From Azolla caroliniana (taxonomy: Eukaryota > Plantae > Polypodiophyta), in contig JBHGNT010000016.1 of assembly GCA_043228905.1 (NCBI GenBank), positions 8,370,001 to 8,434,000 of the forward strand: DNA of 64,000 nt, given 5' to 3'. A program made the position numbers and the translations under genes. The notes beneath the pieces are model-generated. The model was not told the DNA's origin. It did no database searches and saw nothing but the letters and a program-made list of their open reading frames with translations. Shown piece after piece: positions 3,369 through 63,722 of the stretch (positions are counted from its first letter, which is position 1; every line of letters begins with the position of its first letter).

Positions 3369-3652
3369 TGTTACACTTGCGTGTTCCTCTAGTAGCTTTG
3401 ATGTGAACCATTTTCCCTATACATGGGCACTTTTTACTCTAGTGCTGGCTAGAGGTTTTTTCCCCATGTTACCACATACATGAGTCACTCATATGTGGTG
3501 GTACTTAGTACTTAGGGATATATATTTCAGCTCCTATTTTTTTTTAGGAACATTCATCAATAGAGAGCTATTCCAGCCATTGCCTTCCTTGTGTGAGTGC
3601 TTCTTTCTTTGAGCTTCTTGTGTGTTTCCCACTCTTCCTCACATACCCAACA
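3369..3652 (+). repeat. 5' LTR of element B
   Basis: Near-identical to 8257-8539. Confidence 0.95.
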
Positions 3653-3653
3653 G

Positions 3654-3666
3654 TGGTATCAGAGCC
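3654..3666 (+). promoter_or_regulatory. Primer-binding site for tRNA-iMet (element B)
   Basis: TGGTATCAGAGCC 1 nt after LTR end. Confidence 0.93.
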
Positions 3667-3938
3667 AAGTTCTTCATCCTCTCCATCTTCGGTTGTCCGC
3701 ATCGCGGTGTCGCGGCGCGCGCACACTTTTCATTGTGCAAATCAACTTCCGAATATAGAGAAGTGTATTTCAGCACTTGGAGCGCATTTTCAGCAGGTAC
3801 CCTGCTGTTTTACCCCCATTTCGAAGCCATTCGTGTAGTCGAAATCGTCATCCGAGTGATAGTTTGTGAGCTGCATTTTCAGCACTCATTTCCGATTCGT
3901 TGAGGTAATATTTTACCACTTTCTTGTTCTTTGGTAAA

Positions 3939-6900: not shown

Positions 6901-8210
6901 ATGGCATTGATTATGAGGAAACTTTTGCACCTACTTCACGCATGACTACCATTCGTACCGTGGTTGCATTGGCTGCCCAAAGAGGTTGGAAAATGCATCA
7001 ATTGGACATAAAAACAGCCTTTTTAAATGGTGATTTGCAAGAAGAGGTTTATGTGAAGCAACCTCCTGGATTTGCTACGAAAGAGAAAGAGCATATGGTT
7101 TGTCGTTTGCATAAGGCCTTGTATGGTCTCAAGCAAGCTCCGCGTGCATGGTATGAAAAAATCCATAAGCACTTGATTTCTCTTGGCTTCACATGTAGTC
7201 CGATTGAAAGCACACTTTATGTACGCAAAGATGGGGCTGATCTTCTAGTGCTCGTTCTTTATGTTGATGACATACTCTTGACTGGGTCATGTGATGCAAA
7301 ACTCGATTTTCTTATGGCTGATTTGCAGCATACTTTTGAAGTCACTTATCTTGGTCTTTTGAGCTACTATCTTGGCATCCAGTTTGTATCCGTTGAGGGG
7401 GGAATGTTTATGCATCAAGGAAAGTATGTTGAAAAACTACTTCAGCGTTTTGACTTTGAGGATTGCAAGCCGGTTTATACACCTGTGGAGACAGGATTTA
7501 GGTTCTCTGTTGAGGATTCTAGTGATGCGTTTGATACTTCTCTTTATCAACAAGCTGTGGGATGTCTTATATATGCATGCAATACAAGGCCGGATATACA
7601 GTATGCAGTCTCCCAATTGAGTCGATTCATGCATAGCCCTGGCACTAAGCATTGGCAAGCAGTGAAACGTGTGTTCAGATATCTTAGAGGCACTTTGAGC
7701 TTGGGTCTCTTTTATGGCAGAGATACTCAGCCATGCTTGCATGCTTTTACAGATAGTGATTGGGCTGGTTGTTATGATACTCGCGTGTCCACTAGTGGTA
7801 ATTGCTTTTTCTTTGGAAACTCATGTATATCTTGGTTGAGTAAAAAGCAACCTACAGTGGCGACATCAAGTTGTGAAGCTGAGTACAGGGCAGTTTTCAC
7901 AGCTACAGTGGAGTGTATATGGCTAAGACGCCTTTTGATGGATCTTTGCATGGAGATTGAAGTTGCTACACGTATTCTCACAGATAGTCAGAGTGCATTG
8001 GCTGTTGCACGAAATCCTGTATTTCATGCACGGACCAAACACATTGAGGTGCATTATCACTATGTGAGAGAGCGCTTTCATGCAGGAGATATTGATTTGG
8101 TATATGTGCCTACACAAGATAACGTGGCAGACATATTCACCAAAGCTCTTCCACGAGAAAAGTTTGAAGCTTTTCGCAAAGCTTTAGGCTTATTGCCTTG
8201 TGGGGGCTGA
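3939..8210 (+). CDS. Copia Gag-Pol polyprotein (gag, CCHC knuckle, protease, GAG-pre-integrase, integrase, RT, RNase H)
   Basis: First ATG 3939 within ORF 3924-8210; CKYCRKVGHTIEEC, WFFDSGAS, HSDVCGP/RTDRGGEY/VAERKNR, LYVDD, DSDWAG..EAEY..ADIFTK. Confidence 0.96.
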   Translation: MANNGDLFGMLQAEDKLDGTNYPMWSYMMKHVLVAKQLWNIVVDVDRRPAGPTTSQSTITDTGSSSSTVTSSTPPTQEQLRWDGKDAQAHALIALSVKRHIVPHIRSCSTSKQAWDTLASLYAVHNEARVAYLRKQLEDVYMAENESVDVYVTRIKDLKEQLANIDEIISNTSLVSTLLKGLPESFQSFATTIGLVAKGNTDMYAFDEVVSLLLQEEQSRVNRSGLIEGTQALAISQKGKGKHGSAFGSSKPKPQPPSFTYSSNDGDLQKKKRCKYCRKVGHTIEECRKLVKRNEKKKESGMTISENVSSAKSDEANMAQDYWACVVTYHYDASLHSKCMVVSEIDSDWFFDSGASKHITSCKSFFASLKDAPKGGHVVCANNASYPIIGVGEIELSAANGGVVILKNVLYVPGIKKNLISVPLIAKAGLHVHFVDDKCMVHDYSNGDVIVMSGTLCNGLYRLDTYKRASLNALAVHTSSMAEMELWHARFGHLNFNSLLHLQKKDMVIGLPTLESIEKHACEGCILGKMHRASFPKDSHTHTTRKLQLVHSDVCGPVKTPSFGKHVYFVTFIDDATRHTWVYPMKAKNEVFSCFKSFLAMAENFSANKLLTLRTDRGGEYMSHEFNAFLCERGILHQCTVPYTPQQNGVAERKNRTLLEMARCMVKGKHLPNKFWMEAVMCANYVLNRCPTKALRVITPYEAWNGHKPMVSHMRVFGCLAYALVPSQQRHKLDDKAKKCIFVGYSAESKGYRLYHPLTDTIIVSRDVVFAENSAFPFLECKKQPTVSSRDVFDTLMPLFQSAALDHGHVDQPSESQRDKNFQQISVENARNVQPNVAENEHEIQPTHDVHIEDVLHNERMAIERSQTMPRWLKQTLQDSKLSAPLLGKTRSSSRHASGNFVDYSIVAIACNEEPLTFEDACDDPHWMSAMQSEMDSIHKNGTWELCELPKGKNVIGTRWVYKIKRKPDGSIDRYKARLVAKGYAQQYGIDYEETFAPTSRMTTIRTVVALAAQRGWKMHQLDIKTAFLNGDLQEEVYVKQPPGFATKEKEHMVCRLHKALYGLKQAPRAWYEKIHKHLISLGFTCSPIESTLYVRKDGADLLVLVLYVDDILLTGSCDAKLDFLMADLQHTFEVTYLGLLSYYLGIQFVSVEGGMFMHQGKYVEKLLQRFDFEDCKPVYTPVETGFRFSVEDSSDAFDTSLYQQAVGCLIYACNTRPDIQYAVSQLSRFMHSPGTKHWQAVKRVFRYLRGTLSLGLFYGRDTQPCLHAFTDSDWAGCYDTRVSTSGNCFFFGNSCISWLSKKQPTVATSSCEAEYRAVFTATVECIWLRRLLMDLCMEIEVATRILTDSQSALAVARNPVFHARTKHIEVHYHYVRERFHAGDIDLVYVPTQDNVADIFTKALPREKFEAFRKALGLLPCGG

Positions 8211-8256
8211 TCTGTCACTCCTTGTACATGTTCACATCATTCGCTCCAGGGGGGTT

Positions 8257-8539
8257 TGTTACACTTGCGTGTTCCTCTAGTAGCTTTGATGTGAACCATT
8301 TTCCCTTTACATGGGCACTTTTTACTCTAGTGCTGGCTAGAGGTTTTTTCCCCATGTTACCACATACATGAGTCACTCATATGTGGTGGTACTTAGTACT
8401 TAGGGATATATATTTCAGCTCCTATTTTTTTTAGGAACATTCATCAATAGAGAGCTATTCCAGCCATTGCCTTCCTTGTGTGAGTGCTTCTTTCTTTGAG
8501 CTTCTTGTGTGTTTCCCACTCTTCCTCACATACCCAACA
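8257..8539 (+). repeat. 3' LTR of element B
   Basis: Near-identical to 3369-3652; followed by TSD TTTCC. Confidence 0.95.
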
Positions 8540-15964: not shown

Positions 15965-16226
15965 TGTCAGGAAACGAATCATCAATCCACAAGAAAAGGA
16001 ATATGCTGAAATGCACAACTTTGAAACACAGAAAATAGTGTACACAGATTTAACCTGGAAACCCTAAACGGAAAAAACCACGGGAACAGAGATTCCACTA
16101 TACACAAGAGAGTACAGAAAAACGGTTACTATCTTCTTTGACACACACACAGGATAACCCGCTTAGGGTTCTTACCAAGTTCGTTGAACCTTGCTACCGC
16201 TCTTGTTGGCCATTGACAACCAAGTA

Positions 16227-19200
16227 TGTAATGAGGAAGGGGCGAGTCGGGTTCCGGATATATAATGATATTATTAATTATAGGAATGGACAGATCCGGA
16301 ATAGGTATGTTGATCCGGATTCAGGCTGATTCGTACCCGGTTGCCGGTTAGGCATCGTTTTGTAACACAGACCCAGAGGCTTATAAAAGGATCCAGGTAT
16401 CGATGTATTAAGGGATGGAATGTTAATATAAGTTCAAAGCTTTGTTATTATATCTTGTGGATCTTTATGTTCTATTCCGTTCTGCGCGCAATATATGAAT
16501 CTTACGCGTGTAATTGGGGTGTGTTCTGAATACGAATACCGAACTGAAAGACAACCAGTTATGGGTGTTAAGTGCTTAATCTCTTACCGTAACCACCCTT
16601 TGATGAAGTGTTCCGAAGGGACACCTTGTGCTAGAGGCAAGTGCGGCCCAGGAATGACACATAATTTGGCGACCACGATTACTGCAGCAAGTAGCGAACA
16701 ACGGGGGGATGGATGACTAGGCCAACAAACGACCTAGTTGCTGAACGAGCAAGAAGACTAGCCGCGAGACTGCGGAGGCGGGAGGCTTACCAACAAGCGG
16801 CTGAGGAGATCTGATTAGATCGGTCTTTTTCCAGCGTGATTCGGTAGGTCGCGGAGGAGTCACTCTATCAATACCCGGACAAAGGAAGCAGTTTGAGCAG
16901 TTTGCGGAATGCAGAATCCATCCTTCAGACCCTCGCGGCGGGCGAGGGAGATTCGGGAGCGTTCTCGGCTATCGAATTGGATTCGGACGGGGAGCACAAG
17001 GTTCAATCCAACTATCGAAGCAGTCACAACACCCCGGAAGACCCGAACGATGACGATTCGGAAAACCTACCAACGATAGAACCAGAAACAACAAAACTGG
17101 CATCCCCGGTCAACGAAGCTGGTTCGAATGAGCAAGTACCTACACCACCACTCAACCACTTGGAGACTCAGGAGGAACACGCTTCGACACCACTACCCAA
17201 GTCACCGAAGAAACAGTAGGAGCGGGTACTAACACCACCTCTGGTAGAACCAATAGACGACAACACCATGCCATACTAGTATCCGAAATATTGGGATGAC
17301 TAGGACGCGGAGGCCCACATCTGCGCCTTTCTCCAAACATGGGAAGCGAACCATGTTTCACAACGGCTGACCGAAGTAGAGGCCGAACGCTCGAAGATAG
17401 CGGAATTCAGCATGACCTTGGAGGGACAGATGGCATAACAAGCACCTTCCTGACAGAAGCGCCACATTTAAAGAATTAAAGAAAATGTTTCTGCGCTTCT
17501 TCCACAGACAGGTGGAACAAAGGGAAATCGTCGGTCAATTCTACACGACCCGACATGACCCGACAAAAATCGTGTTGCATTTCATCATCTGGTTCCAGAC
17601 GCTGCACAGTCAACTCACCAGAGCTCCACTGGAAGGAGAAGTGAAAGCGATATTTTTGGTAGCGCTTCAGGAACCTCTCCGAACAATGTGTGCGGTAATA
17701 GATTTCCAAACCAACACCATAGACCAAGTCATGGACCGGGTAATGGAAATGGACAAGATTAGTTCGTGGCCGTCAATGGGGGCAGTCCAACGAGCACTCC
17801 CTACAGAAGAAGACCTCCGGTTTTGGCAGGCCGTACAATGCACAACGTGCCTTAACCCCAGACACTGAATGGTAGAATGCACAATGAGAGCACACACAAT
17901 GCATGATATGTCATTCCTGAGCACACACAATGGACTGATGTGAATATAATCTACTAAACCGACAGGTGGCACCATTCAGGCAGATCTAACCCCAGACCGA
18001 ATGGCAAAACGATGATGAACGGTTCAGGTGCGATGACCGCTACCGACCAATACAAGACATCCGATACGACAGACGAGAGTATGATCGGGATCATAGGGAT
18101 AGGAGCCGAGAATACAACCATGATAGGTATGATCGCGATTATTCCCCCAACTATAACAAAAGGAGGGATGACCAACGAGGAGAATATGCAGATTCGGATA
18201 GGCGCCCCTCAAACTGGCAGGTATATCAGAACAATTGGCACCATAATCGGAGGAGAAATTTGCGGAGAAACGAGCAGCGAGAACCGGCTAGAGATGATCA
18301 ATGGGAGCCCGATAGAAACATGACTGACGCCCAAGAGCCAAACCAGGCGATAATCAGCTTTCAGTCCGGTAACATGGGAAAAGCGGAATCGAGTAACACA
18401 CGAAAAGTGTATTGTTACTACTGCCGACAAGACGAACACTATAGCAGTCAATGCCCAATCAAGACCAACGAGAAATAACTGGCAGTGAATATGGTGATTG
18501 CGGAGGTGGCTAATATTCAACAGCTCACCACTCGATCAAAAGGAGAAATGACAGAATGGGAGGCTCAGGAAGCAATTCGAAAATAGGCCACCGAATGGAT
18601 AGAAAAGGCGAACGAACGAAACGTGACCGAATTATGAGAACGAATGAAACCTCTGGAGGAACAAACAGAGACCATGGACGAGAATTGAACGTGGCAGGCA
18701 TTACAAGTCTGCCAGATTATGCTACCACTAGGCCGTCTGCTGCAATTAGTGCCCCGATTCACCAACGGACTGAAATCAATATTGGCTGCACAAAACCCCA
18801 TACCGGCTCTGACATTCTTTTCAAATCCGGAAGAAGGACCGAACGTCGTGGACACGAGCAGCCTTGCAATCATAGTCATCGTCAAAGGACGACGAATCGG
18901 GAGTGAACGTAATTAGCCAACGTACATGTGATACGTTAGGGATCTGGGAATGGGAACCATGCCCATTCTGGCTCCAGATGGCTGATACCAGTTCGGTCCG
19001 GCTACTCGGGCTGATCCGGGATTTGGAGGTCACAATTGGCGGACATGCATTCCAGATATCCGTAGTGGTGTTGCAGTTAAGAGCACAAGGAGCATATCCC
19101 TTGTTGCTAGGAAGACCATGGTTGCAGACGACACACATAAAACAAAATTGGCAGAGGAATATCATCACTTTCCGATGTGGCAAAGTAAAAGTGCGAGTAC

Positions 19201-19610
19201 CGATACACCCACGAATAGGAGCCAGTAAGGAGTGGATGCCACTATATGCGAAAAGCATTAACATACTAGAAGGACTAGCCGACGAATAGGTAGACCGATA
19301 CCTAGACGAACATCCAAGGATAGTGCCATTGTTCGAAGTAGACGTTGCAGAAGCAGTTACCCCGTATATTGTGCAACCAGAAGAAGTCGGTGATGAGCCG
19401 GATCGGGAAGCAATCTGAGAATTACATCAAGCACAAGAATCCTTGGAACGGGAAATGGCGGTATTGCAACGAGTAAAAGCGTTGCGGTTGGAGGACGTGA
19501 ACCTCGAAACCAGGGAGGAATCGAAACCAGTCAACACCGTTGAATAAAACAGCAATGGTGTCATTACTAAAAGAATTCCGAGATGTATTCGCATGGTCGT
19601 ACGAAGACAT
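16227..19610 (+). mobile_element. Truncated Ty3/Gypsy relic F (Tat/Athila-type non-chromovirus): LTR, PBS, gag with several zinc knuckles, protease, RT start
   Basis: LTR ~16227-16661, PBS TGGCGACCACG 16667-16677 (tRNA-Arg-like), CYYCRQDEHYSSQC, LLLGRPWL, EFRDVFAWSYED, then abrupt end. Confidence 0.75.
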
Positions 19611-19611
19611 T

Positions 19612-21084
19612 TGGTAACCCTAACCCTACAACACTAACAACACTATTTTGGCGACCACTAAGGCGACCCCCCTTTGGAGACGATGTTGATGACTAATACG
19701 CGACAAAGACATGGGAACGACGAAATGTGCGATAATGGTGACGGTGATTTGCGAGAAATCGAATTTATGATGTGTAGCAAATCAAATCGGTAATGTGCAA
19801 GAAATGGCGACCACAATGTGTTGGAAATGGCCATGATAACGAAAAAAAGAAACAGTCATAGCGACAACCGGAATGACGGAGAGATTGACAACGACAATGA
19901 TGGCCGAACCGACCAACCGACAACGGCCAAGAATAGCTAGCAACGGTAAACTGACGGCCAGATGCACAAACAATGACGAAAAAACACAACTGGACAATGA
20001 CGAAGACGATCGGGACGACAATCGGACAATTGGAAAGACATGGCCATTCGAGCCGAACAACAATGGAGATGACCGGGGACGACGACCTGGATGAACGAAG
20101 ACAGTTGGACAAGGTCGACAGCGACTGTTCTGCGAAGAGACAAAGACAGCTGAAGAGCATCGACGGCAGCCGGAGCCGAACAGAATAATGATGAATGGAT
20201 GGCTGGCCAGAGACAGCCAAGCAATAGTGACGGCCAGAGATGGCCGGACGGCAACCGAAATGGCCGAAATGGCCGAAGAAACGAAGAAGGAAAACACAAG
20301 AAGGAGATAGAAGAAGAAGAAAAGGATACATCAAAACAAGAAGAAGAAGAGGATGGTATCCAACTAGAGATCTAAGAAAGATACAGAGAAGAAACAGATA
20401 GAGAAGCGAGCGAGACAGAAGCAAGAGAGAGGAGGGGAATAATAATAATAATAAATCAACCAATAAAAAGAAAGAAAGGGCAAGCGAAGCGAGAATGATA
20501 GGGGTATCGAACATAATTTTAAAAACATGAGGGTACATAATACAATTTCCAAAACCTAAGGGCATTGCCATTAGTTTAGAAAATTTGAGGCTACAATACC
20601 TAAATTTAAAAACTCAACCACCTAAAAGAAATAGACGTGATCGACCACGACAACTCACACAAAATTAAAGGAAGAACACACATACACACAACATGCTTTT
20701 GGACGCATGACGAAGTTTGTGAACCGATAGAACAAGAATGTTCGTGTCGAGGAAGATTCGTTGACCGAAGGAGGTGTTCGAGTCAAGCGTTCTGATTGAG
20801 GGAGTCGATCGATGAGAGGACCGACGGAAGTTTCGGTCGAAGAAAGATGACGATCAAGGCATGTGGGATCGACGTGCAAGGCACTCTCCCACGGGCGTGC
20901 CATAATGTGTTGCCGTACGAGATGTATGGAGAGCGAGGGTGGAATGTTATGATGTTGTTTATGTGTATGTGTAAATGTGTAAGTGTAATTGTGAGTGTGA
21001 GTAATTACGTATGTGTACACATGCACACGTGTGTGCATGTGGACGGATACGAGGAGGTGTGAGTGAGCGATTGGTGTGAATGTT
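19612..21084. mobile_element. Partial non-coding LTR element G related to L; LTR from ~20908 interrupted by H
   Basis: 20650-21050 resembles the reverse complement of 47700-48130 (GTTCGAGTCAAGC, GTTTCGGTCG, LTR TG-rich tract); CCCACGGGCGTGCCA at 20888-20902. Confidence 0.65.
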
Positions 21085-47375: not shown

Positions 47376-48815
47376 AGGATTCAAGAGTAAAAAACAGTTA
47401 GCTTGATTCGAGGGGCCTTTATTCCCCTATTATAAGCATTCAATTTAAAGGATGCCCTCCTTGACGAGCTGAAAACTCAATGAGCAAAACTAACTCGGCC
47501 TGTTAACGGGTGGGGGGTGAAGCCTAGATTGGCTCCACCCCCCTCCCAAAGGGGGTTACGTGTAAAGGAAAGAGAAGTAAAGAAAAATAGAAAATGACAC
47601 AAATGTGAGAGGGGAAAAATGTATCATCATTACATGCCCATAAGGGGTTTATATAATACATCTAATGTAACGGTTACATAACCATTATAAAGAAGACCGT
47701 TACACATTCTTATACACATGCACATAATTGTGCATGTGTCCATACACATACTCATCCTCACACACTCATTTACTTTACATAGACACATCAACCACATCAT
47801 TACACCTACCCTTATGCCTCCCCCTATATTCTTACGAGTAACACATGGCATGCCTATGGGACAATGCATTGCATAGTGAACCCACTCACCATGGCAACTC
47901 TTCCCGACCGAAACTCCATCAGTCGTCTCAACGGTCGGAAATCCCTTGACCAGATCATAGCTCTATGATCGGTAACTTCAATCGGAGCATTGCTTGACTC
48001 GAACCTTCTCGTTCGATCAGCACAAGTCATGATTGGATCATACACCAATTGGCTAGTTCAATGTGGTATGGGTCGTGAAATTGTGTTGTGTGTTTGTGTA
48101 AATTTTCTTTCGTCATGTGAAGTGAGTTTTATATTTTGTACCCTTTGGTCTTTAAAATTTTGCCCTCAAATTTTTAATTTTTTTTATCATAGGCCCTTCT
48201 GTTTTTTTTGACATATTCTCTTCTACCCTCCCGTTTTTTAAATTTCATCATCTGCCCTTGAGCTTTTGAAATTCCATTGATGTTGCCCTCGAGCTTCTAA
48301 AATTTCGTCAATACGTCCTCCGATTTTCGAAATTTTGCGTCTCATTTACTTCTCTCTGTTTCCTTTTCTTCCCATGTTCTTCTTTTCTGTTGTCGTCTCT
48401 TCTCTGTTTGTCTTCATCTTCATATCTACTCGTGCTATAACCATTGTGCATGTGCCATGCCTTTAACGTGTTTCTCTTGCTTCTCCTCTGTCTTCAGATG
48501 TGATATTGTCATCACTTTCTTGTTCTTTTTGGAGCTTCTTCTTCTATCTGCCTCTTTCTCTTCCAACAGAACAGGGGTTCTAGCTTGCTATCCCATGCAC
48601 AAGCTCTCGACCTTAAAAATTGCTGGCCATGATCTCCTGCATCCTTATCATCCTCAAAATTAGGATCGGCACTTATACTTATGTGGCGGCAGCGGCATCG
48701 ATGGCGCTGATGTATTTGATTTTACTACTGCGTGGCCAGATGAATCAGATTTCTAGGGTTTTAGGAGATGGCAGTGGCGGCGATGGCGCGAAGGCGGCTA
48801 TTGCGATGGCCCCTC

Positions 48816-49033
48816 GTTCTTGGCTCTCGACCCATGATGACTGCCCTTGGTACATATCGACCTCCAGTAGCCTCATTGAAATAAACATCGATCCTCTCTA
48901 GCTGAAGAACTGAATCTCCATGATACGAACCCGTGGGATCTATATCATGCTCGTCACAAATGACCTCCCAAAACTTTGAGCCAATCTGATTTCCATACTG
49001 ACCCCTTGATTGCAGAGAATCCCTTAGACTCAT
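48816..49033 (-). pseudogene. TUB: Captured beta-tubulin N-terminal fragment (~70 codons)
   Basis: [52 protein letters not shown]; damaged start. Confidence 0.93.
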
Positions 49034-49052
49034 TTTTCTTGCGAATACCATT

Positions 49053-49690
49053 AAAGAGCCATCTACTCCAGTTATGAGCACACCAGCCCACGAAGGAATG
49101 TAATCCTCAGACGAGATGCGCGCCGAGCAATGGCACTGTTGATGACCTCTTGGATATCAGCTCCGATGATGGCAACCCCAACCATACCATGATCCATAGA
49201 ACAATTTGAGCCTAGAAAGGGTATTTGTCTCTGCAGAGTTGAGCCAGGTCCCATTAGTAGCGATTCCAAGTTGAGCCGAATGCATCTGAAGAACGAAACC
49301 CATTGCAATGGTCCATAGGACGAGCCATAATAGGGAGTAACCGGCCACCACACCTGATTGCAGGGTACTTTCGATGTTCCCAGAATCTAGGTATGCGATA
49401 CTCATGAGGAATCAGGGCCCGTGAAGAGCCAGAGCTTCTTCCATGAGAAAGGGGGAACCTTCCATGGCCTCCCAAGACTTCCAATGCGGAGTGTGAGATT
49501 CGCTATAGGACTGCGCAGGGGCACAAGCTTGCGTAGTAAGCTTGATAGGAGCGACCTTCTCAGCTCTCAACTCCATGATGGGAGGATGCATCTTAAGCTT
49601 CCCAACCAGAGCCATGGGAATACTATTCTCAACATAAGAAATGCTCCTTTTCTCCTTATCATCGTCTTCTTCTTCAGGAAGCATACACAC
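49053..49690 (-). pseudogene. NRAMP: Captured NRAMP metal-transporter 5' fragment
   Basis: [55 protein letters not shown] across frameshifts; upstream limit approximate. Confidence 0.9.
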
Positions 49691-50567
49691 AAATACACAA
49701 AACACAACACAGACGCCGACGCAGACACAAACCTAGAGATCTGAAGACAGATAACTTCTGGGGTAGCTAGGGTTTTAGGCAGAGAGAGAGAGAGAGAGAG
49801 AGAAGTGAGGGTTTCTTCAAGAACCAGACACATGCTTTCTTTTATTAGGGGAGCTTCCTGTTCCATTTAGCTTTCTTCAGTTTTATACGCATCCTTCCTT
49901 ACTTCAAATCAATGGAGCAAAAACTTAAGCTTTCTATCTCTCATCACACACACAGAGACGACTCTCAACACACAATAGACAGATAGAAAAACACACAAAG
50001 AGGGAGAGAGCTATAGACTTCCTCTCAAGGGCGTGCCAGTGTTAATGGGTGGGTGGTGAAGCCTAGATTGGCTCCACCCCCCTCCCAAAGGGGGTTTACG
50101 TATGAGGGAAAGAGAAGTAAAGAAAAATAGAAAATGACACAAATGTGAGAGGGGAAAAATGTATCTTTATTACATGCCCATAAGGGGTTTATATAATACA
50201 TCTAATGTAACGGTTACATGACCGTTATAAATAAGACCGTTACACATTCTTGTACACATGCACGTAATTGTGCATGTGTCCATACACATACTCATATCCT
50301 CACACACTCATTTATTTTACACATACACATAAACCACATCATTACACCTACCCTTATGCCTCCCCCTATATTCTTACGCGTAACACGACTAAAATCGGGC
50401 GCACTAGGTGGCTGTAAAGTGTAAACAACGTCACCCCCTTTGACTCCTTAGTTCGAGACCCCTGTGGTCCCATTCAGTCTACACGCACATGCGAAATCAA
50501 CGCGATAACATAAAGACTCCTACGATTACTCAAAATATGGGCTCTAACCTTTAGTACACACATATGA

Positions 50568-52195
50568 TGTTGGATATTTACGTACTCTTTGATATCATCC
50601 TTTGAGTGTTGTAGCACATCAACACTTTACTCTTTCACCCTCATCACACTCAACTTTGTGTACATCTCGTACAATAACATTGAGTTCCTTGTCCATGCAA
50701 ATAGACACCCATAAACACACCCATGGATATATAGGTTAATAAATGTATCATATTAAGACGTTCACAATGTACTTTACTACATTTTACCTTGAATTGCATT
50801 AGATCTTAGGAATATAATAATCTCTAGTGTCTAACTCTATGGTGTCATCTGTGGAGCGTATTTAGGGGTAATGGAAACAAAGCACACTTGTCGAAGCTTG
50901 CCTCTCGTATCCACCCAGTCGTAGTTATTCCTTCATGCCTCTCACTCAAATTTTCAAAATTCAGATTTTATCACGCCATATCATGGCGCACTTCGTTAGC
51001 TCTAATTCGCCTATTTGAACTCTAAAATTCGATATCATACGAGGAAGGTATGAGCTTTCTGATTCACATAGCGACTCTAGTTAATCCCTACATGATTTCT
51101 ACCACAAGTTTACTTTTTCCTTCATGTCTCTCGCTCTAAATTTCACAATTCAGATTTTATCACGCCATATCATGGCGCACTTCGTTAGCTCTGATTCACC
51201 TATTTGAACTCTAAAATCCGATATCATACGAGGAAGGTATGAGCTTTCTTATTCACTCATGCGCTCTTGTCTCTCCTTACATGATTTCTACCACAACTTT
51301 ACTTTTTCCTTCATATCGCTCGCTCTAAATTTCAAAATTCAGATTTTATCCGCCATATCATAGATCACTTCCTTAGCTCTGATTCACCTATTTGAACTCT
51401 AAAATCCGATATCCTACGAGGAAGGTATGAGCTTTCTGATTCACTCAGGCGCTTGTGTCTCTCCCTACATGATTTCTGCCACAAGTTTACTTTTTCCTTC
51501 ATGTCTCTCGCTCTAAATTTCAAAATTCAAATTTTATCATGCCATATTATAGACCACTTCCTTAGCTCTGATTCACCTATTTGAATTCTAAAATCTGATA
51601 TCACACGAGGAAGGTATGAGCTTTTTAATTCACTGAGGCGCTCTTGTCTCTCCCTACATGATTTCTGCCACAAGTTTACTTTTTCCTTCATGCCTCTTGC
51701 TTTAAATTTCAACTGTGCTTTCGTACTTTTTTCTTCATGCCTCTCGTATCCACCCAATCAGGTGAAGATTGTTGCCAAGGCTGTTGCCTTGAGGCTAGTA
51801 CATACTCTCTAGTCAAAACCTAGAGAGTTTGTACTCAATTGTATTTGCTATTGTGTAGCCAAGGCTATTGCCTTGAGATTTGTACGTTCCTCTAGTCCAA
51901 ACCTAGAGAGGTCGTACTTAGTTTGTAATCTTTGTTTTCTATCCACCCGATTGGGTGAAGGTTGTAACCAAGGCCATTGCCTTGAGGTAGATACACTCCT
52001 CTAGTGAGGTCGTATTCCATTCTACTCAAAATTATAGTGAAGTTTTTTGGAACTTATGGTTCTCGTGGTTTTTCCCTACTTTGGGTTTTCCACGTTAAAA
52101 TTTTTGGTGTACTCTCATTTTCGTCTTGTGGTTTCATCAAGTGTTAATTGTGTTTGAAGTTTAAATCATCCCGATTCAATCTCATATTCCCAACA
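50568..52195 (+). repeat. Probable long solo LTR containing a tandem array
   Basis: TGTTGG..CCAACA ends and U5-like GGTTTTTCCC..GGGTTTTCCACGTTAAA; no matching TSD found, so left end uncertain. Confidence 0.45.
50928..51710. repeat. Tandem array of ~189-bp units, ~4.1 copies
   Basis: TTCCTTCAT anchor at 50928, 51117, 51306, 51494, 51683. Confidence 0.93.
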
Positions 52196-56930: not shown

Positions 56931-57850
56931 GTTAGTTGAGTGAGGGGCAATACAATCTTTGAATAATCTTTGATTAACTTGCGATAAAATTTTGCGAAAC
57001 CCAAAAAACATTGTACATCTCGCACAGACTATGGTGTTTGCCAATCCAAAATTGTTTGAACCTTTGATGGATCCATAGAGGTGCCATTTGAAGAGACTAT
57101 GTACCCCAGAAATTCCACTTGACACTGGTCGAAACTACACTTCTCCAATTTTGCATAGAGACCATACTCTCGTAACCGTTGCAAAACTTGGCGAACATGT
57201 ATCTCATGCTCCTCTTGATTTTTTGAGTAGATCAAGATATCATCTAGGTAAACTATGATGAAGATATCGAGGAAGTCCTGAAAAATGTCATTCGCCATAT
57301 GTTGGAAAACTGTTGGTGCATTCGTGAGACCAAATGGCATCACTGTATACTCAAAATGACCATAGCGAGTGCAGAATGCGGTCTTCCATTCAAACTGTCA
57401 TAACTAGACTCGAACCCATAACCTTTTGTTACACGGGTCGAGACTTTACCATTAGGTTATGAATTGTAATTTGAAGGATATTATTTTCATTTAGGTTTTA
57501 TTGGGAAATTGATGTATATTCCAGATTTCTCTGGAACATTCTAGAAACTTCAGGAGTATTCCTGAAGACACTATAAAAGGAGGCGCAAGGCATTAGTTCG
57601 AACCAAATCGGTTCAACGCCAGTCTTAAGCCTTCTAACTACTGTTGTATATCTTCCTTCATATAATACATATACCTTTCGCATCATCATTCTCTCTCTCT
57701 CTCTCTCTCTCTCTCACCCATTCCTTCTCTCAAAGTTCGACACCTCTCATAGTACTAATCCTTCTCTGTCTTAGTACTATTCCCCGACAATAGTACTAAT
57801 CCTTCTTTTAGTACTAATTCCTTCTCTGCCTTAATAGAGTTCCTGACAGT

Positions 57851-57862
57851 TTGAACCGATTT
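57851..57862 (+). promoter_or_regulatory. Self-priming PBS (Tf1 type) of N
   Basis: TTGAACCGATTT is the exact reverse complement of AAATCGGTTCAA (57605-57616), 33 nt after TATAAAA. Confidence 0.85.
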
Positions 57863-57949
57863 CCCGGTGCCTGTCTGGTCTTTTCTCTCCCTCTTCCTTC
57901 TGTCTCCCTCCTTTCCTATTAGTCTCTTATTTCCCTTTTCCTTCATCCC

Positions 57950-59119
57950 ATGGCCACCGTTAGCGCTGAAGAGTATCAATCCGTTTTCTCAGAATTTCAA
58001 TGCTTGAAAGAGAAGTTTCATGCTTTGGAACAAGAAAATCAACGCTTGTTGGGGGATCTTCAGCAAATTTCCTTAGAAAAGCAGCAAACACAACAACAGC
58101 ATGGGGAACTTGCGTTACGTGTGCAACAACTCGAAGCAACCATCGTAGCAATGCAACAACAAGGGCACGGAGCACAAGGGATTCATAAAGAACCCAAGAT
58201 TGGCCTTCCCACGAAGTTCGATGGAACGCGATCGCAGTTTAGAGGGTTTCTTAACCAGGTACGGTTAGTTATTCAAATGCATCCGTCCCGATATCCCACC
58301 GATGCATCACGAGTGGGTTTAGTAGGCACGTTGTTAAATGGCTCAGCATTAGCATGGTTCGCTCCGCTACTAGAAAAGGAATCTCCAGTACTAAATAATT
58401 TTGAAGAATTCATAAGTGAGTTTAAAGCATGTTTTGGAGATACTGACAGCATAAGGACTGCAATCAACAAAATCCGGCGATTACGCCAAGGTGACCGTCC
58501 AGCCTCCGCATATGCTGCAGATTTCCGCCTACTCGCCGCCGATATCCCCTGGGATGATCAAGCATTGATGGAGCAGTTCCGCTATGGTCTACGCAACGAT
58601 GTCAAGGATTTACTCTTGACTTTCCCTGAAGAGCCAAAATCATTAACAGAAGCAATCAGTCGAGCGGTCAGATGTGACAACCGCCTCTTCGAGCGACGTT
58701 CGGAACGACAATTTCAGATGCCGAGGGCAAGATCCGAGCCTACCTATGCCTCAGTGGTAGCAAAACCTTTTCAAAGGGAGTCACATAATGCGCCTCCAGT
58801 AAGTACTCCAACTCCAATGGAAATTGACACTACACGTCGTCGTGGGCCGCTATCGGAGGAGGAAAAGCAACGACGCCGAACAAACCGATTATGCCTTTAT
58901 TGCGGTGGACCAGGGCATATCGCGATAAACTGTCCCCATAGACCAAGAAGGCAGGTAAACCAAGTCATTGTTAGTTTCGATTATACTAAACCCGAGTCTA
59001 TTTCAGTAGGAATCTCTGATAGTCCTCATAGTCATAATAGTCCTAATAGTACTAATAGTCCGAATCTCGCAAACAAATTTGATGTCCTTAGCCAATTAGA
59101 AGAAGAGTTAAACGACTAA
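57950..59119 (+). CDS. Gag (coiled coil, capsid, CCHC knuckle) of N
   Basis: PTKFDG..FLNQ, LRQG..AYAADF, PMEID, CLYCGGPGHIAINC. Confidence 0.95.
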   Translation: MATVSAEEYQSVFSEFQCLKEKFHALEQENQRLLGDLQQISLEKQQTQQQHGELALRVQQLEATIVAMQQQGHGAQGIHKEPKIGLPTKFDGTRSQFRGFLNQVRLVIQMHPSRYPTDASRVGLVGTLLNGSALAWFAPLLEKESPVLNNFEEFISEFKACFGDTDSIRTAINKIRRLRQGDRPASAYAADFRLLAADIPWDDQALMEQFRYGLRNDVKDLLLTFPEEPKSLTEAISRAVRCDNRLFERRSERQFQMPRARSEPTYASVVAKPFQRESHNAPPVSTPTPMEIDTTRRRGPLSEEEKQRRRTNRLCLYCGGPGHIAINCPHRPRRQVNQVIVSFDYTKPESISVGISDSPHSHNSPNSTNSPNLANKFDVLSQLEEELND

Positions 59120-59160
59120 GTCCAGCCAAAATAGGAGCCGTTTGGTTGGACAGCCCTAGA
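59107..59160 (+). promoter_or_regulatory. Putative -1 ribosomal frameshift signal
   Basis: G_TTA_AAC heptamer, 6-nt spacer, stem GTCCAGCCAAA/TTTGGTTGGAC; pol lies in the -1 frame, open from 59092. Confidence 0.75.
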
Positions 59161-62100
59161 TCTGTGCAGCCCATTAGTGGTTCCATTCCCTCTAAGCAAG
59201 TTAGTGATGTGTTCGTAGCCCAAGTAGCAGTTAGTACTAAAAGTACCCCTCCAGTACATACCTTAGCCCTTCTAGATTCCGGAGCTAATTCTTGCTTCAT
59301 GGATAGGAATTTTGCCCGAGCTCATCAGATATCTCTCAGAAAGCTCCCATGTCCAGCCTCAGTAGTAGTCATTGATGGTCGTCCCATTGCTTCTGGTAAT
59401 ATCATAGAAGAGTCGGAACCCGTTAATATTGTCCTAGATAACTTAACATGTGTAGTATCATTTAATATTATTAGTATTCCAGAACATCCCATAGTTTTAG
59501 GATTACCATGGTTCGAGTTACATAACCCAGACATAGATTGGAGGACAAGGGAAATCCGGTTGCGACAAACCCAAGGATCTACCCAGAAGGTTGCAACCAT
59601 TTCGCTACGTCAGTTGCATGAGGAAGGGCGCAAGGAGGAAATGTTTCTCTTCGCAATATCAGTACAACCCTCCAGTACCACCAAAGAGGAGTCCACCGTT
59701 CAACTTCCCGAGAAGTATCGTCAGTATGCTGATGTGTTCGATAAAGTACAAGCCAACACACTTCCTCATCATCGGCCGTACGATTGCACCATCGACTTAC
59801 AACCGGGAAAAGAGCCGCCATGGGGGCCGATCTACAATTTGTCACCAACCGAGCTAGAAGTCCTTCGAGCCTATATAGAGGAGAATTTGGAGAACGGTTT
59901 CATTCGGCATTCGAAATCTCCAGCCGGCGCACCCATTTTCTTCGTCAAGAAAAAAGATGGCTCGCTTCGACTCGTTGTAGATTACCGTGGCTTGAATAAG
60001 GTCACAGTAAGAAATAGGTATGCTCTTCCCCTTATCTCAAGTCTTTTAGAACGGATCAACGGTGCCAGGTTCTTCACGAAGATCGACTTACGAGGAGCCT
60101 ATAACCTCGTACGGATCCGACCAGGAGATGAATGGAAGACCGCGTTTCGCACCAGATATGGGCACTTCGAGTATACGGTCATGCCGTTCGGACTCACTAA
60201 TGCGCCGGCAGTCTTCCAGCACATGGCGAATGATATATTTCGAGATCTCTTGGATGATTTTTTGATCATCTATTTGGATGATCTACTAGTTTATTCAAAG
60301 ACCCAAGAAGAACATGATTCTCATGTACTATTAGTACTAAAACGACTTCGAGAACATGGTCTGTATGCAAAGTTAGAGAAATGTAGTTTCGGGTGCAACC
60401 AAGTGGAGTTTCTCGGCTATGTCATCTCCTCAGAAGGCATATCTATGGACCCAGCCAAGGTCAAAACGGTGATAGAATGGCACACTCCGCGTTCGGTGCG
60501 GGATGTGCAATGCTTCCTAGGCTTTGCAAATTTCTACCGGAAGTTCATACAAAATTACTCAAAAATTGTGCTGCCTCTCACACAGCTCACCAGGAAGGGA
60601 CAATCATTCATTTGGTCTAAAGAGACGGACATGGCTTTCGAGAGTCTTAAGAAGGCGTTTACATCAGCTCCAATTTTAGGTCATGTGGATCCGGAAAAAC
60701 CATTCATTATCGAAGCTGACGCATCGGATTTCGCATTGGGGAGCATTCTGTCACAACAGGGTAACGACGAGAAGCTACATCCTGTGGCTTTCCACTCCCG
60801 TAAGTTTGACGTCGCCGAAATCAACTACGAAATTCATGATAAAGAGCTATTAGCAATAGTTGATTCTTTTATGCAATGGAGGCATTTCCTGGAGGGATCT
60901 CCTCATCAGGTCACTGTATTCAGTGACCATAAGAACCTTGCCTACTTTCAAGATGCTCGTGTACTGAATCGACGTCAAGCTCGGTGGGCCCACTTCCTCA
61001 CACGCTTCGACTTCAAAATTACATATCGTCCGGGGAAGCACCAAGGGAATGCAGATGCATTATCACGGCGTTCGTATCTAACACCACGTCCCGGTGAGCC
61101 AGCTTTCGATAACCAGAAGCAAGTAATCTTGGGTCCAGCACGACTGCAAGCAGCACAGGTCTTTGACATGCCCGTGGATTCCGACATTACCAATACTATA
61201 CGTGAGGACTTGAAGACTGACGCTTTCGCCCAAGCTATACTAGCACAAATTGACCCCTCTCGAGCGTCATGTTCACAATCACAATCACCAGGTACGGATT
61301 ATCGGCAATTCAAATACTGTGATGGATTACTCTTCTTTAAAGAACTTTTGTATGTTCCTAATGGTTCTTGCCGCCTTCGAGTAGTACAAAACTGCCATGA
61401 CACATATACAGCAGGACATTTTGGTAGTACTAAAACATTAGATTTAGTACAACGATCATTCTGGTGGCCCCGTATGCGACAATTTGTCGAAGATTTTGTT
61501 CGGACTTGCGATACATGCTGCAGAGCGAAAATGCCAAGACATCATCCATATGGTTTATTAGAACCATTACCAATTCCAAGCAAGCCATGGCAATCCATTG
61601 CTCTTGACTTCATTACAGATCTTCCAGTCTCTAAGGGATTCAGTGCGATTCTCACAGTGGTGGATCGATATACAAAGATGGCTCATTTCTTACCATGTAC
61701 TAAAGAAATATCTAGTGAAGACACCGCCGAAATTGTCATGCGGGAAGTATGTCGGCATCATGGACTCCCTGATAATATCATCAGCGATCGTGGACCCCAG
61801 TTTGTGTCAAAATTCTGGAAGCACCTTTTTAAAATGCTGAAGGTCACTTGTCACCTCTCCTCCGGCTACCACCCACAAACCGACGGTCAAGCTGAACGAA
61901 CAAATCAAACACTAGAGCAGTATCTGCGGTGCTTTCTCAACTATCATCAGAATGACTGGGCAGATATTCTTCAGTTCGCCGAATTTGCCTATAATAACGC
62001 TATCCACGCATCGACTAAAGTCACGCCATTCTACGCTTATACAGGATATCATCCCCGGTGGTGTGTCCTTGAAACCCCAGAAGTGTCCACAAATCCTTGC

Positions 62101-62703
62101 GCGGAGGATCGTTTGGAGCGGTTACGCAAGATACAAGCGGATTTATCTACTCAACTCCAGCAAGCTCAACAATCACACAAGGACTACGCAGATCGTCATC
62201 GACTTCCATCCAGTTTTAACATTGGAGATCGGGTGTGGCTGCTACGACGACACATCAAGACTACTCGCCCATGTGAGAAGTTGGATTATCGGCGATTAGG
62301 TCCTTTCCGTATTATCGGGAAGATTAATGATGTCGCTTTTCGTCTCGAGCTACCTCCGCAACTTCGGATACATCCGGTGTTTCATAGTTCTCTCCTCGAA
62401 CCCTATCACGAGAGCACTATCCCAGGACGTACTATACAACCACCACCTCCTATCGAGCTCGAAGATGGACCTGAGTATGAGGTCGCTGCCATCCTCGATT
62501 CCAAGATTGTTCGCAACAAGCTCTACTATCTAGTCGATTGGCTAGGATATAGTCCCAGCGAGCGTACTTGGGAACCGATCGAGAATGTGACCAATGCTCG
62601 TGCTCTTCTAGAAGACTTCCATCGACAATATCCCGAGAAACCGGGTCCTCAATCCAAAACGACTTGTGGAACTCGTCGTTTTAAAGGGGGGATAGTGTCA
62701 TAA
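59146..62703 (+). CDS. Pol (protease, RT, RNase H, integrase, chromodomain) of N, probably made as Gag-Pol by frameshift
   Basis: LLDSGA, YLDD, ADASD..DKELLA, HHCC, SDRGPQF, DGQAER, GPF, EYEVAAIL..YLVDWLGY..TWEP. Confidence 0.96.
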   Translation: MDSPRSVQPISGSIPSKQVSDVFVAQVAVSTKSTPPVHTLALLDSGANSCFMDRNFARAHQISLRKLPCPASVVVIDGRPIASGNIIEESEPVNIVLDNLTCVVSFNIISIPEHPIVLGLPWFELHNPDIDWRTREIRLRQTQGSTQKVATISLRQLHEEGRKEEMFLFAISVQPSSTTKEESTVQLPEKYRQYADVFDKVQANTLPHHRPYDCTIDLQPGKEPPWGPIYNLSPTELEVLRAYIEENLENGFIRHSKSPAGAPIFFVKKKDGSLRLVVDYRGLNKVTVRNRYALPLISSLLERINGARFFTKIDLRGAYNLVRIRPGDEWKTAFRTRYGHFEYTVMPFGLTNAPAVFQHMANDIFRDLLDDFLIIYLDDLLVYSKTQEEHDSHVLLVLKRLREHGLYAKLEKCSFGCNQVEFLGYVISSEGISMDPAKVKTVIEWHTPRSVRDVQCFLGFANFYRKFIQNYSKIVLPLTQLTRKGQSFIWSKETDMAFESLKKAFTSAPILGHVDPEKPFIIEADASDFALGSILSQQGNDEKLHPVAFHSRKFDVAEINYEIHDKELLAIVDSFMQWRHFLEGSPHQVTVFSDHKNLAYFQDARVLNRRQARWAHFLTRFDFKITYRPGKHQGNADALSRRSYLTPRPGEPAFDNQKQVILGPARLQAAQVFDMPVDSDITNTIREDLKTDAFAQAILAQIDPSRASCSQSQSPGTDYRQFKYCDGLLFFKELLYVPNGSCRLRVVQNCHDTYTAGHFGSTKTLDLVQRSFWWPRMRQFVEDFVRTCDTCCRAKMPRHHPYGLLEPLPIPSKPWQSIALDFITDLPVSKGFSAILTVVDRYTKMAHFLPCTKEISSEDTAEIVMREVCRHHGLPDNIISDRGPQFVSKFWKHLFKMLKVTCHLSSGYHPQTDGQAERTNQTLEQYLRCFLNYHQNDWADILQFAEFAYNNAIHASTKVTPFYAYTGYHPRWCVLETPEVSTNPCAEDRLERLRKIQADLSTQLQQAQQSHKDYADRHRLPSSFNIGDRVWLLRRHIKTTRPCEKLDYRRLGPFRIIGKINDVAFRLELPPQLRIHPVFHSSLLEPYHESTIPGRTIQPPPPIELEDGPEYEVAAILDSKIVRNKLYYLVDWLGYSPSERTWEPIENVTNARALLEDFHRQYPEKPGPQSKTTCGTRRFKGGIVS

Positions 62704-62985
62704 CTAGACTCGAACCCATAACCTTTTGTTACACGGGTCGAGACTTTACCATTAGGTTATGAATTGTAATTTGAAGGATATTATTTTCATTTAGGTTTTA
62801 TTGGGAAATTGATGTATATTCCAGATTTCTCTGGAACATTCTAGAAACTTCAGGAGTATTCCTGAAGACACTATAAAAGGAGGCGCAAGGCATTAGTTCG
62901 AACCAAATCGGTTCAATGCCAGTCTTAAGCCTTCTAACTACTGTTGTATATCTTCCTTCATATAATACATATACCTTTCGCATCA

Positions 62986-63037
<52 letters not shown>

Positions 63038-63722
63038 ATTCCTTCTCTCAAAGTTCGACACCTCTCATAGTACTAATCCTTCTCTGTCTTAGTACTATTC
63101 CCCGACAATAGTACTAATCCTTCTTTTAGTACTAATTCCTTCTCTGCCTTAATAGAGTTCCTGACACAAACAAGGTTGTAGGCACCTCGAAGATCTAACT
63201 TCATGAAATACTTTGCTCCACTGAGGCGTTCTAGAAGGCTTGAGATCAATGGTAGAACATATTGGTTTCTAATAGTCCCTTTATTCAAGCCCCGATAATC
63301 CATGACCATACGAAGCGTACCATCTTTCTTCTTAACGAAAAAGATGGGTGCACCAGTAGGAGATCTTGAATGTTGGGTAAAACCATTTGCCAGGTTCTCA
63401 TCGATATATTCTTGAAGAACCTCTAACTCCGTGGGCAAAAGGTTATAAATTGGCCCCCATGGAGGCTCTTTTCTTGGCTTCAAATCAATCGGGAAATCAT
63501 ATGGTCGATGTTCTGGTAATCTATTAGCCTTCACCTTATCGAACACATCGGAGAATTCTATGTACTTCTTTGGTAATTGGACCCCCAATTCTTGTGAGCT
63601 AGATGAGGGAGTTTCTAAAACCGCAAACACTAGCATGTCTTCCTTCCTTCCATCCTCTCATAACTGATGTATAGAGATTGTTGAAATCTTGTGGGATCTT
63701 AGATCTGTTAGAAAATGGAGTT

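What the first reader, a model, noticed from the sequence alone, without database searches (positions are those of the whole stretch)
47844..50039. LTR element with two inward-facing tRNA-Arg primer-binding sites and no PPT
Seen: 2 nt inside the left LTR is TGGCATGCCTATGGGAC (47846-47862). It differs from TGGCACGCCCGTGGGAC only by CpG-type transitions. 1 nt inside the right LTR is GGGCGTGCCA (50029-50038), i.e. TGGCACGCCC on the other strand. Neither LTR abuts a polypurine tract. Known: TGGCACGCCC(A)GTGGGAC is the tRNA-Arg(UCU) PBS of Tat-type elements, and plus-strand synthesis normally needs a PPT. Inference: the same tRNA might prime both DNA strands, or transcripts of either polarity might be substrates; the LTR TATA (TTTATATAA) is near-palindromic. 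I know no description of this architecture.
Basis: partly seen in the sequence, partly recalled or inferred. Interest (0 to 1): 0.85.

Follow-up and report, generated by a model that had tools for sequence, protein, structure and literature searches.

The report
Retrotransposon swaps polypurine tract for tRNA-end
This protein-less plant jumping gene, like its many relatives, lacks the purine-rich patch that normally starts the second DNA strand and carries a conserved copy of a tRNA's 3' end at that spot, so a second host tRNA likely primes that strand, a route that would be new for such elements.

Summary
The element is a 2.9-kb non-autonomous Ty3/gypsy derivative that reads on the window's minus strand, as shown by gag direction in a relative, promoter layout and a captured, likely spliced NRAMP mRNA piece. 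So the 10-mer at 50038-50029 is the ordinary PBS. The anomaly is the site at 47846-47885, in the PPT position: a ~40-nt copy of a tRNA-Arg 3' end with CCA and an inserted hairpin. Of 31 U3-side LTR edges, 17 carry this cassette and 14 abut unique DNA; none shows a PPT. Its tRNA-like 16 nt are identical in 8 divergent copies whose neighbouring DNA is 71-80% alike. It is unchanged in 5 of 10 complete internal regions whose PBS uses another tRNA-Arg. Best reading (0.5, inferred, untested): a second host tRNA anneals to minus-strand DNA and primes the plus strand. Main rival (0.25): the element's own RNA copy serves as primer. The partner has no detected archaeal RNase H, so probably not Tat. Ten literature searches found no description. 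The scan noted the same architecture before on three other pieces of this genome.

The parts
50040..50385 (-). 5' LTR (346 bp); TATATAAA at 50195-50188 followed by a pyrimidine-rich stretch; U5 hairpin at about 50086-50047
   Evidence: orientation from L037
50028..50038 (-). Ordinary minus-strand PBS, tRNA-Arg(UCU)-type, 10-11 nt, 1 nt from the LTR; about 13 nt shorter behind the PBS than the L019 subfamily
   Evidence: anticodon label from a phage tRNA proxy, L110
49462..50027 (-). Leader with a CT-repeat and an unidentified piece; joined to NRAMP at a short shared motif
   Evidence: origin not identified
49036..49461 (-). Captured, frameshifted NRAMP fragment, likely from spliced mRNA (runs across the place where the genomic relative's ORF stops)
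   Evidence: Pfam Nramp E 4.9e-10
48830..49033 (-). Captured beta-tubulin N-terminal fragment, fused to the NRAMP piece
   Evidence: Pfam Tubulin E 1.7e-08; same chimera in P0121 and in contigs of three runs
47886..48250 (-). Family-conserved 3' non-coding region
47846..47885 (-). tRNA-3'-end cassette in the PPT position: T-stem 5' arm, T-loop-like part, inserted hairpin (47864-47874), T-stem 3' arm, acceptor strand and CCA; three CpG-type transitions in this copy
47844..47845 (-). 2-nt spacer between the cassette's CCA and the 3' LTR
47501..47843 (-). 3' LTR (343 bp)
47496..47500 (.). Left copy of a likely decayed 5-bp TSD (right copy 50386-50390; 3 of 5 match)
19610..21083 (+). Sibling non-autonomous element in the same window: 5' LTR remnant, UCG-type PBS at 19649, intact cassette ending at 20902, 3' LTR cut by a copia element

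Best explanation
This is a non-autonomous Ty3/gypsy LTR element with a conserved tRNA-Arg 3'-end cassette where the polypurine tract normally sits, and a second host tRNA likely anneals there on the minus-strand DNA and primes the plus strand. Steps. (1, shown) The element reads on the window's minus strand, encodes no retroelement protein and has an ordinary 10-11 nt PBS behind the 5' LTR. (2, shown) The family has the cassette, not a PPT, before the 3' LTR. (3, inferred) A non-chromovirus partner like L037/P0002 packages the RNA and makes minus-strand DNA from the PBS. (4, inferred) RNase H clears the RNA; the cassette's complement on the DNA then reads as a second PBS pointing into U3. (5, inferred) tRNA-Arg(UCU) pairs by its last 17 nt with a one-base bulge, perhaps also by its T-stem 5' arm with the DNA hairpin looped out, and RT extends from CCA through U3-R-U5. 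(6, inferred) The same tRNA-removal cut trims both ends, leaving similar overhangs for integrase. This copy is probably dead: its cassette has three transitions.
For: Position and exclusivity: 17 of 31 U3-side LTR edges carry the cassette (10 distinct sequences), 14 abut unrelated DNA (best pair 13 of 30 identical), none a shared pyrimidine tract. Constraint: the 16 tRNA-like bases are 100% identical among 8 divergent copies, against 71% in the LTR, 80% in the hairpin and loop, 75-76% further in, and 88% in the LTR's last 10 nt. It ends in CCA, which eukaryotes add after transcription (PMC6317226, passage), so it reflects mature tRNA. It matches the 3' end of an ARAGORN-called tRNA-Arg(TCT), one base short (L110, a phage proxy). 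It is independent of the element's own PBS: unchanged in 5 of 10 complete internal regions whose PBS is another tRNA end. Spacer lengths run together at the two ends: 2/1 here, 2/2 in L019, L052, L059, 5/5 in L062, L066, L079, L081, 5/6 in L045 and the window sibling. Non-autonomous copies with otherwise unrelated middles keep it, as expected of a cis signal. Inner hairpin: 2 of 4 pairs changed on both sides, 99 of 99 cells paired.
Against: No experiment and no cDNA ends were seen. I had no host tRNA sequence; the anticodon label rests on a phage proxy picked by pattern and on recall. I saw no contig joining integrase to the cassette, so its presence in autonomous copies is inferred from LTR homology. 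The T-loop-like part varies (five forms in 11 sequences), which full tRNA pairing would not favour. The conserved T-stem can fold within one strand and compete with annealing. The metagenome contigs may be chimeric across LTRs (6 of 14 LTRs seen whole have internal sequence on both sides), which weakens the PBS/cassette pairings and the spacer symmetry; the latter rests on about two lineages. The 14 'other' edges are read as outer edges; only 5 are shown to belong to an LTR with a PBS on its other side. One double change in the hairpin may be methylation decay; whole-region folds are not better than shuffles (z -0.13 and -0.39).
Confidence: 0.5

Rival explanations
1. The element's own RNA copy of the cassette is the plus-strand primer: it resists RNase H and is cut after CCA because it mimics the tRNA end that RNase H cuts during primer removal. 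It replaces the PPT without a second tRNA.
For: Same position, invariance and spacer symmetry. The RNA is already paired with the new DNA, as a PPT is. T-stem and inner hairpin are kept as RNA-type pairs, including a G-U in this copy. The loop does not track tRNA sequence.
Against: A mixed-base RNA/DNA hybrid is normally degraded (own knowledge; PPT-mutant RNA failed to prime in vitro in HIV-1, PMC13332604 passage). An RNase H tuned to the primer tRNA would be expected to favour the PBS-type end, yet 39 of 46 PBS edges are the other type. The fold cannot form while hybridised to DNA.
Confidence: 0.25
2. The cassette is selected for something other than priming (pairing of the RNA's two ends, an RT pause, packaging, or escape from tRNA-fragment silencing), and the plus strand is primed by another RNA fragment, for example a non-adjacent purine run.
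For: In UCU/UCU elements such as this one the cassette is complementary to the PBS over 10 nt (with one G-U in this copy). Drosophila gypsy uses a second tRNA site to bridge genome ends rather than to prime (PMC1635307, abstract and section 19). A conserved fold is present.
Against: End-to-end pairing is impossible in UCG-PBS elements (5 of 10 complete regions; 39 of 46 PBS edges). A precise U3 edge 2-8 nt from CCA in 17 of 17 cases needs a defined primer there. No adjacent purine tract exists.
Confidence: 0.2
3. A relic: one aberrant reverse transcription copied a tRNA end into the PPT position, and it spread by descent without function; or the 10-mer in this copy is a one-off.
For: The one-base gap and inserted hairpin look like an old copying accident. 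This copy's cassette is decayed (3 of 17 bases).
Against: 100% identity of the 16-mer amid 71-80% neighbours. The 10-mer recurs before the LTR in other copies (7 edges, plus L019, L052, L059; 8 of 32 listed contig pieces from four runs start matching at 50028-50030). The decay here fits CpG loss seen elsewhere in this copy (4 of 8 LTR CpGs differ; 4 of 12 conserved CpGs in the 3' region read TG or CA).
Confidence: 0.05

Closest known systems
Canonical LTR retroelement priming (tRNA at PBS; RNase H-resistant PPT), as in HIV-1 and most plant elements (PMC6317226, PMC13332604; passages)
   Same: TG...CA LTRs, tRNA PBS behind the 5' LTR, likely 5-bp TSD, partner with GAG-PR-RT-RH-INT.
   Different: No PPT; a tRNA 3'-end copy in RNA sense sits 2-8 nt before U3.
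Plant non-chromovirus Ty3/gypsy (OTA, Phygy, Selgy of Neumann et al. 2019, PMC6317226)
   Same: Partner P0002 has gypsy domain order and no chromodomain; tRNA-Arg PBS; groups with liverwort and fern polyproteins.
   Different: No archaeal RNase H detected, so probably not Tat. No named reference was in my tree, so the clade is unplaced. The passages I read report no PPT loss.
Drosophila gypsy with 5' and 3' tRNA-Lys2 sites (PMC1635307); Ty3 bipartite and Ty1 multipartite PBS as cited there
   Same: A second tRNA-related site near the 3' end of the genome.
   Different: There the second site is complementary to tRNA on the RNA, binds the anticodon and T stems, and is dispensable for cDNA synthesis. 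Here it has tRNA sense on the RNA, includes CCA and stands in place of the PPT.
Non-autonomous LTR elements (TRIM/LARD); Helenus, with tRNA-like LTR sequence (PMC10886601)
   Same: No coding capacity; cis signals kept at both ends; tRNA-derived sequence.
   Different: Helenus keeps both PBS and PPT and its tRNA piece is read as a Pol III promoter inside the LTR. This element is 2.9 kb, between the TRIM (<1 kb) and LARD (>4 kb) limits quoted in bioRxiv 10.64898/2026.03.01.708851.
LTR elements that carry host mRNA pieces, such as maize Bs1 (recalled, no call)
   Same: Sense-oriented, likely spliced host gene fragments between LTRs.
   Different: Here two broken fragments (NRAMP, beta-tubulin) are fused; no sign of a working product.

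Membership tests
LTR retrotransposon (canonical structure) | Two direct LTRs, TG...CA | tested here: met
LTR retrotransposon (canonical structure) | Target site duplication | tested here: inconclusive
   3 of 5 bases match, both differences transitions
LTR retrotransposon (canonical structure) | tRNA PBS just behind the 5' LTR | tested here: met
   50038-50029; same position precedes gag in L037
LTR retrotransposon (canonical structure) | Polypurine tract just before the 3' LTR | tested here: not met
   0 of 31 edges
Ty3/gypsy (through the inferred partner) | Domain order GAG-PR-RT-RH-INT | tested here: met
   P0002; link to this element by LTR motif and PBS context in L037
Chromovirus | Chromodomain after integrase | tested here: not met
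   none in P0002, P0005, P0008, P0017; the same scan finds it in the window's chromovirus
Tat clade (TatI-III, Ogre, Retand) | Additional archaeal RNase H domain | tested here: not met
   none at E 0.1 in 4 of 4 polyproteins; no positive control, since the 6 proteins also lack it
Athila / Phygy / Selgy | Placement with reference RT-RH-INT sequences | not testable with these tools
   no labelled references available; tree of 26 rows shows only a liverwort/fern-associated group
Helenus (tRNA-derived TRIM) | tRNA-like Pol III promoter inside the LTR, with PBS and PPT | tested here: not met
   no tRNA by ARAGORN or Rfam; tRNA piece lies outside the LTR; no PPT
Retrozyme | Hammerhead ribozyme in the LTR | tested here: not met
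   no Rfam hammerhead match at E up to 1

The most novel reading that the evidence does not exclude
A whole, abundant lineage of plant Ty3/gypsy retrotransposons has abandoned the polypurine tract and primes both DNA strands from tRNA ends, often using one tRNA-Arg for the minus strand and another for the plus strand, with a T-arm-shaped cassette that unwinds the second tRNA; its non-autonomous passengers, like this one, keep only these two sites and ferry host mRNA pieces.
Probability: 0.5. Interest if true: 0.9.

Novelty: new variant of a known kind. Interest (0 to 1): 0.76.

Why it matters
PPT priming of the plus strand is treated as a fixed step for LTR retrotransposons and retroviruses. 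A natural, successful lineage without a PPT shows the step can be replaced, and gives a direct test of what RNase H and RT need in a plus-strand primer and of how the two cDNA ends are made alike for integrase. The architecture is well supported; the mechanism is inferred.

Tried and rejected
No whole genome is held for this window, and the metagenome loci could not be searched by handle, so no genome-wide count was possible. Viral contigs: 4 matches to the 16-mer, all chance hits in phage-like DNA; no RT relatives. Prokaryote genome contigs: 5 short RT-like loci of 557-1679 bp, not examined for LTRs. No RNA holder listed. Read depth over the LTRs is hundreds of times that of the unique flank, but the tool says depth is no copy number, so I give none. 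Rfam gave 3 sub-threshold hits only; ARAGORN found no tRNA in the window. My first reading, plus-strand orientation with a Tat-like antisense ORF, was dropped. My idea of an NRAMP intron at 49459 was wrong: the genomic ORF P0122 is continuous there and the element simply joins other sequence. tblastn of five partner polyproteins found no integrase next to a cassette. Whole-region folding of the cassette is not significant against shuffles; only short 46-nt windows gave z of -1.7 to -3.0 in relatives and +0.56 here. Duplex energies used RNA parameters and a proxy tRNA and are not used. TSDs did not match in L049, L061 or L075, probably from chimeric assembly. Supplements of PMC6317226: 5 files held as text (17,418 characters), no hit for either PBS 10-mer; its large element table may not be among them and could bear on lineage and PBS type.

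Full report
Observation. The window holds two direct repeats, 47501-47843 and 50040-50385, both TG...CA, with 326 identical columns, 11 transitions and 6 transversions (K2P 0.051); the flanks CGGCC and CGACT fit a decayed 5-bp TSD. The 10-mer next to the LTR start occurs in 0 of 100 shuffles. The 17-mer occurs 3 times at up to 3 mismatches against 0.06 expected. No purine tract abuts either LTR.

Orientation. A scan of metagenome contigs with a 20-base LTR motif gave 107 matches in loci L005-L109; a few are chance hits. In L037 the LTR end that corresponds to 50040 is followed by a 5-nt spacer, a 10-nt tRNA site and then a 1378-aa GAG-zinc knuckle-RT-RNase H frame running away from the LTR. 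In the window, a related gag (52-70% to P0002) likewise follows a site of that type at 16667, behind a different LTR. On the element's minus strand TATATAAA is followed by a pyrimidine-rich stretch (0.78), on the plus strand not (0.52-0.58). The captured host pieces also read on the minus strand. So the right LTR is the 5' LTR, 50038-50029 is the ordinary PBS, and the left site occupies the PPT position with tRNA sense on the genomic RNA.

Contents. The middle encodes no retroelement protein; Pfam finds NRAMP (E 4.9e-10) and tubulin (E 1.7e-08) fragments in 2 of the 8 frames from the element that I scanned. A genomic relative's ORF, P0122, ends at ITGADG; contigs in two runs stop matching at 49059 and run on unlike; the element reads on into a short stretch resembling the next NRAMP exon in full-length proteins P0123 and P0124. 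I infer capture of spliced mRNA. The same frameshifted chimera is in P0121 (75-89% identical) and is bridged by contigs of runs X2, X5 and X8, so it was copied as a passenger.

Family test at the PPT side. A profile of the LTR's last 110 nt, built from LTR sequence only (its 12 seeds came mostly from cassette-bearing copies), gave 38 hits; 7 were dropped for an incomplete end or under 25 nt beyond it. Of 31 left (27 contigs, 4 window), 17 are followed after 2-8 nt by the tRNA-end cassette (10 distinct sequences) and 14 by unrelated DNA; none by a pyrimidine tract shared between loci. Five of the 14 belong to LTRs with a PBS at the other edge, as 5' LTRs should; the rest are read as outer edges without proof. 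After collapsing 15 junctions to 9, the first 16 bases are identical in the 8 copies other than this one, while the LTR is 71%, the hairpin and loop 80%, the T-stem arm 96% and the region beyond 75-76% alike.

Family test at the PBS side. Of 107 motif hits, 79 had an assignable LTR edge: 39 carry a UCG-type tRNA end (20 distinct, spacer 5), 7 a UCU-type end (3 distinct, spacer 6), 33 other DNA, mostly unique, a few degenerate PBS regions. In four public runs 8 of 32 listed contig pieces (604 not shown) begin matching at 50028-50030 with 115-496 unlike letters before them, so other copies likely share the 10-mer. The UCG label is recalled; the UCU label rests on L110, an ARAGORN-called phage tRNA-Arg(TCT) found by pattern. 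Ten internal regions show both sites: five with UCU PBS (this element, L019, L052, L059, L045) and five with UCG PBS (L062, L066, L079, L081, window sibling 19649-20902); the cassette is UCU-type in all ten. Spacers at cassette/PBS are 2/1, 2/2 (three near-identical copies), 5/5 (four) and 5/6 (two). Contigs can be chimeric across LTRs; the two window elements are not subject to that.

Anatomy of the cassette. In RNA sense it runs: T-stem 5' arm, T-loop-like bases, an 11-nt hairpin, T-stem 3' arm, seven acceptor-side bases, CCA; L110 has eight bases there, so the cassette is one short. In 11 sequences all 99 cells of the 9 named pairs pair; two hairpin pairs changed on both sides, and 2 of 500 shuffles reach this, which is not a probability. 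The loop part varies. This copy has three transitions at two CpGs, in line with CpG loss elsewhere in it, so it is probably inactive.

Partner. P0002 (98% to L037, 1901 aa) has GAG-PR-RT-RH-INT, no chromodomain and no detected archaeal RNase H; I lacked a positive control for the latter. In a tree of 25 rows chosen from 120 hits plus the window's chromovirus, it falls in a 13-row group with liverwort and fern proteins (97/97), apart from seed-plant rows. No labelled references were available. I saw no contig linking integrase to the cassette.

Mechanism. A fixed U3 edge needs a fixed plus-strand primer; in HIV-1, loss of PPT priming shifts products to circles and cuts fitness sharply (PMC13332604, passages). 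The only invariant sequence at that place here is a mature tRNA end pointing into U3 on the minus-strand DNA. I put a second tRNA as primer at 0.5, the element's own RNA copy as primer at 0.25, a non-priming role at 0.2 and a relic at 0.05. The first two together, priming at the cassette, come to 0.75. End-to-end pairing of cassette and PBS cannot be general, because most PBSs are of the other type.

Literature. Ten full-text searches found no description; the library lacks most subscription papers. Seen: PMC6317226 (passages; 5 supplements searched), PMC10886601 (passages), PMC1635307 (abstract and section 19), bioRxiv 10.64898/2026.03.01.708851 (passages; its supplements are closed), PMC13332604 (passages). 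Other papers were seen only as search listings. The nearest cases are Drosophila gypsy's second tRNA site, which has the opposite polarity and does not prime, and Helenus, which keeps its PPT.

Earlier scan notes. Three unreviewed reports on other pieces of this genome reach the same reading, and two on fungal single copies describe look-alikes. They are not independent support. What this element adds is that a protein-less derivative keeps both sites, that the PBS tRNA can change while the cassette does not, and that the two spacers appear to change together.

Verdict. Real, conserved and not found described in my searches; a new variant of LTR retrotransposon replication whose mechanism is inferred. 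Interest 0.76.

Noticed in passing
window 16205-19610: Degenerate gag-PR-RT of the partner lineage (47-70% to P0002) behind a different LTR and a UCG-type PBS at 16667; the RT breaks off where the sibling non-autonomous element begins.
   Followed up: partly
L023, L035, L056, L058, L067, L074, L084: Family LTRs abut gag or pol of the same lineage in 7 loci, suggesting frequent insertion into kin or internal deletions; L067 has gag running straight into a U3 edge without the cassette.
   Followed up: no
window 50047-50086 and 47508-47547: G/C-rich U5 hairpin next to the PBS is shared by subfamilies whose LTRs otherwise differ; many relatives extend U5 with TTAGGG-containing repeats.
   Followed up: partly
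window 47714-47740 and 50251-50279: A second inverted repeat in U3, also present in the sibling LTR near 21020-21045.
   Followed up: no
window 50785-51750: About five tandem copies of a 189-bp unit.
   Followed up: no
window 50608-50679: Fragment of another family LTR end, 220 bp from the element.
   Followed up: no
window 57396-63166 and 3369-8539: An intact-looking chromodomain Ty3/gypsy element (gag 57923-59119, pol 59092-62703) and an intact-looking copia element (1433-aa ORF, LTRs 99.3% identical).
   Followed up: no
L015, L019, L043, L052, L062: LTRs with a PBS on one edge and the cassette on the other: tandem elements or collapsed assemblies.
   Followed up: no
L016 (oriented, before 912): PBS-side junction with a conserved leader but the tRNA-like end 13 nt away from the LTR and altered.
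   Followed up: no
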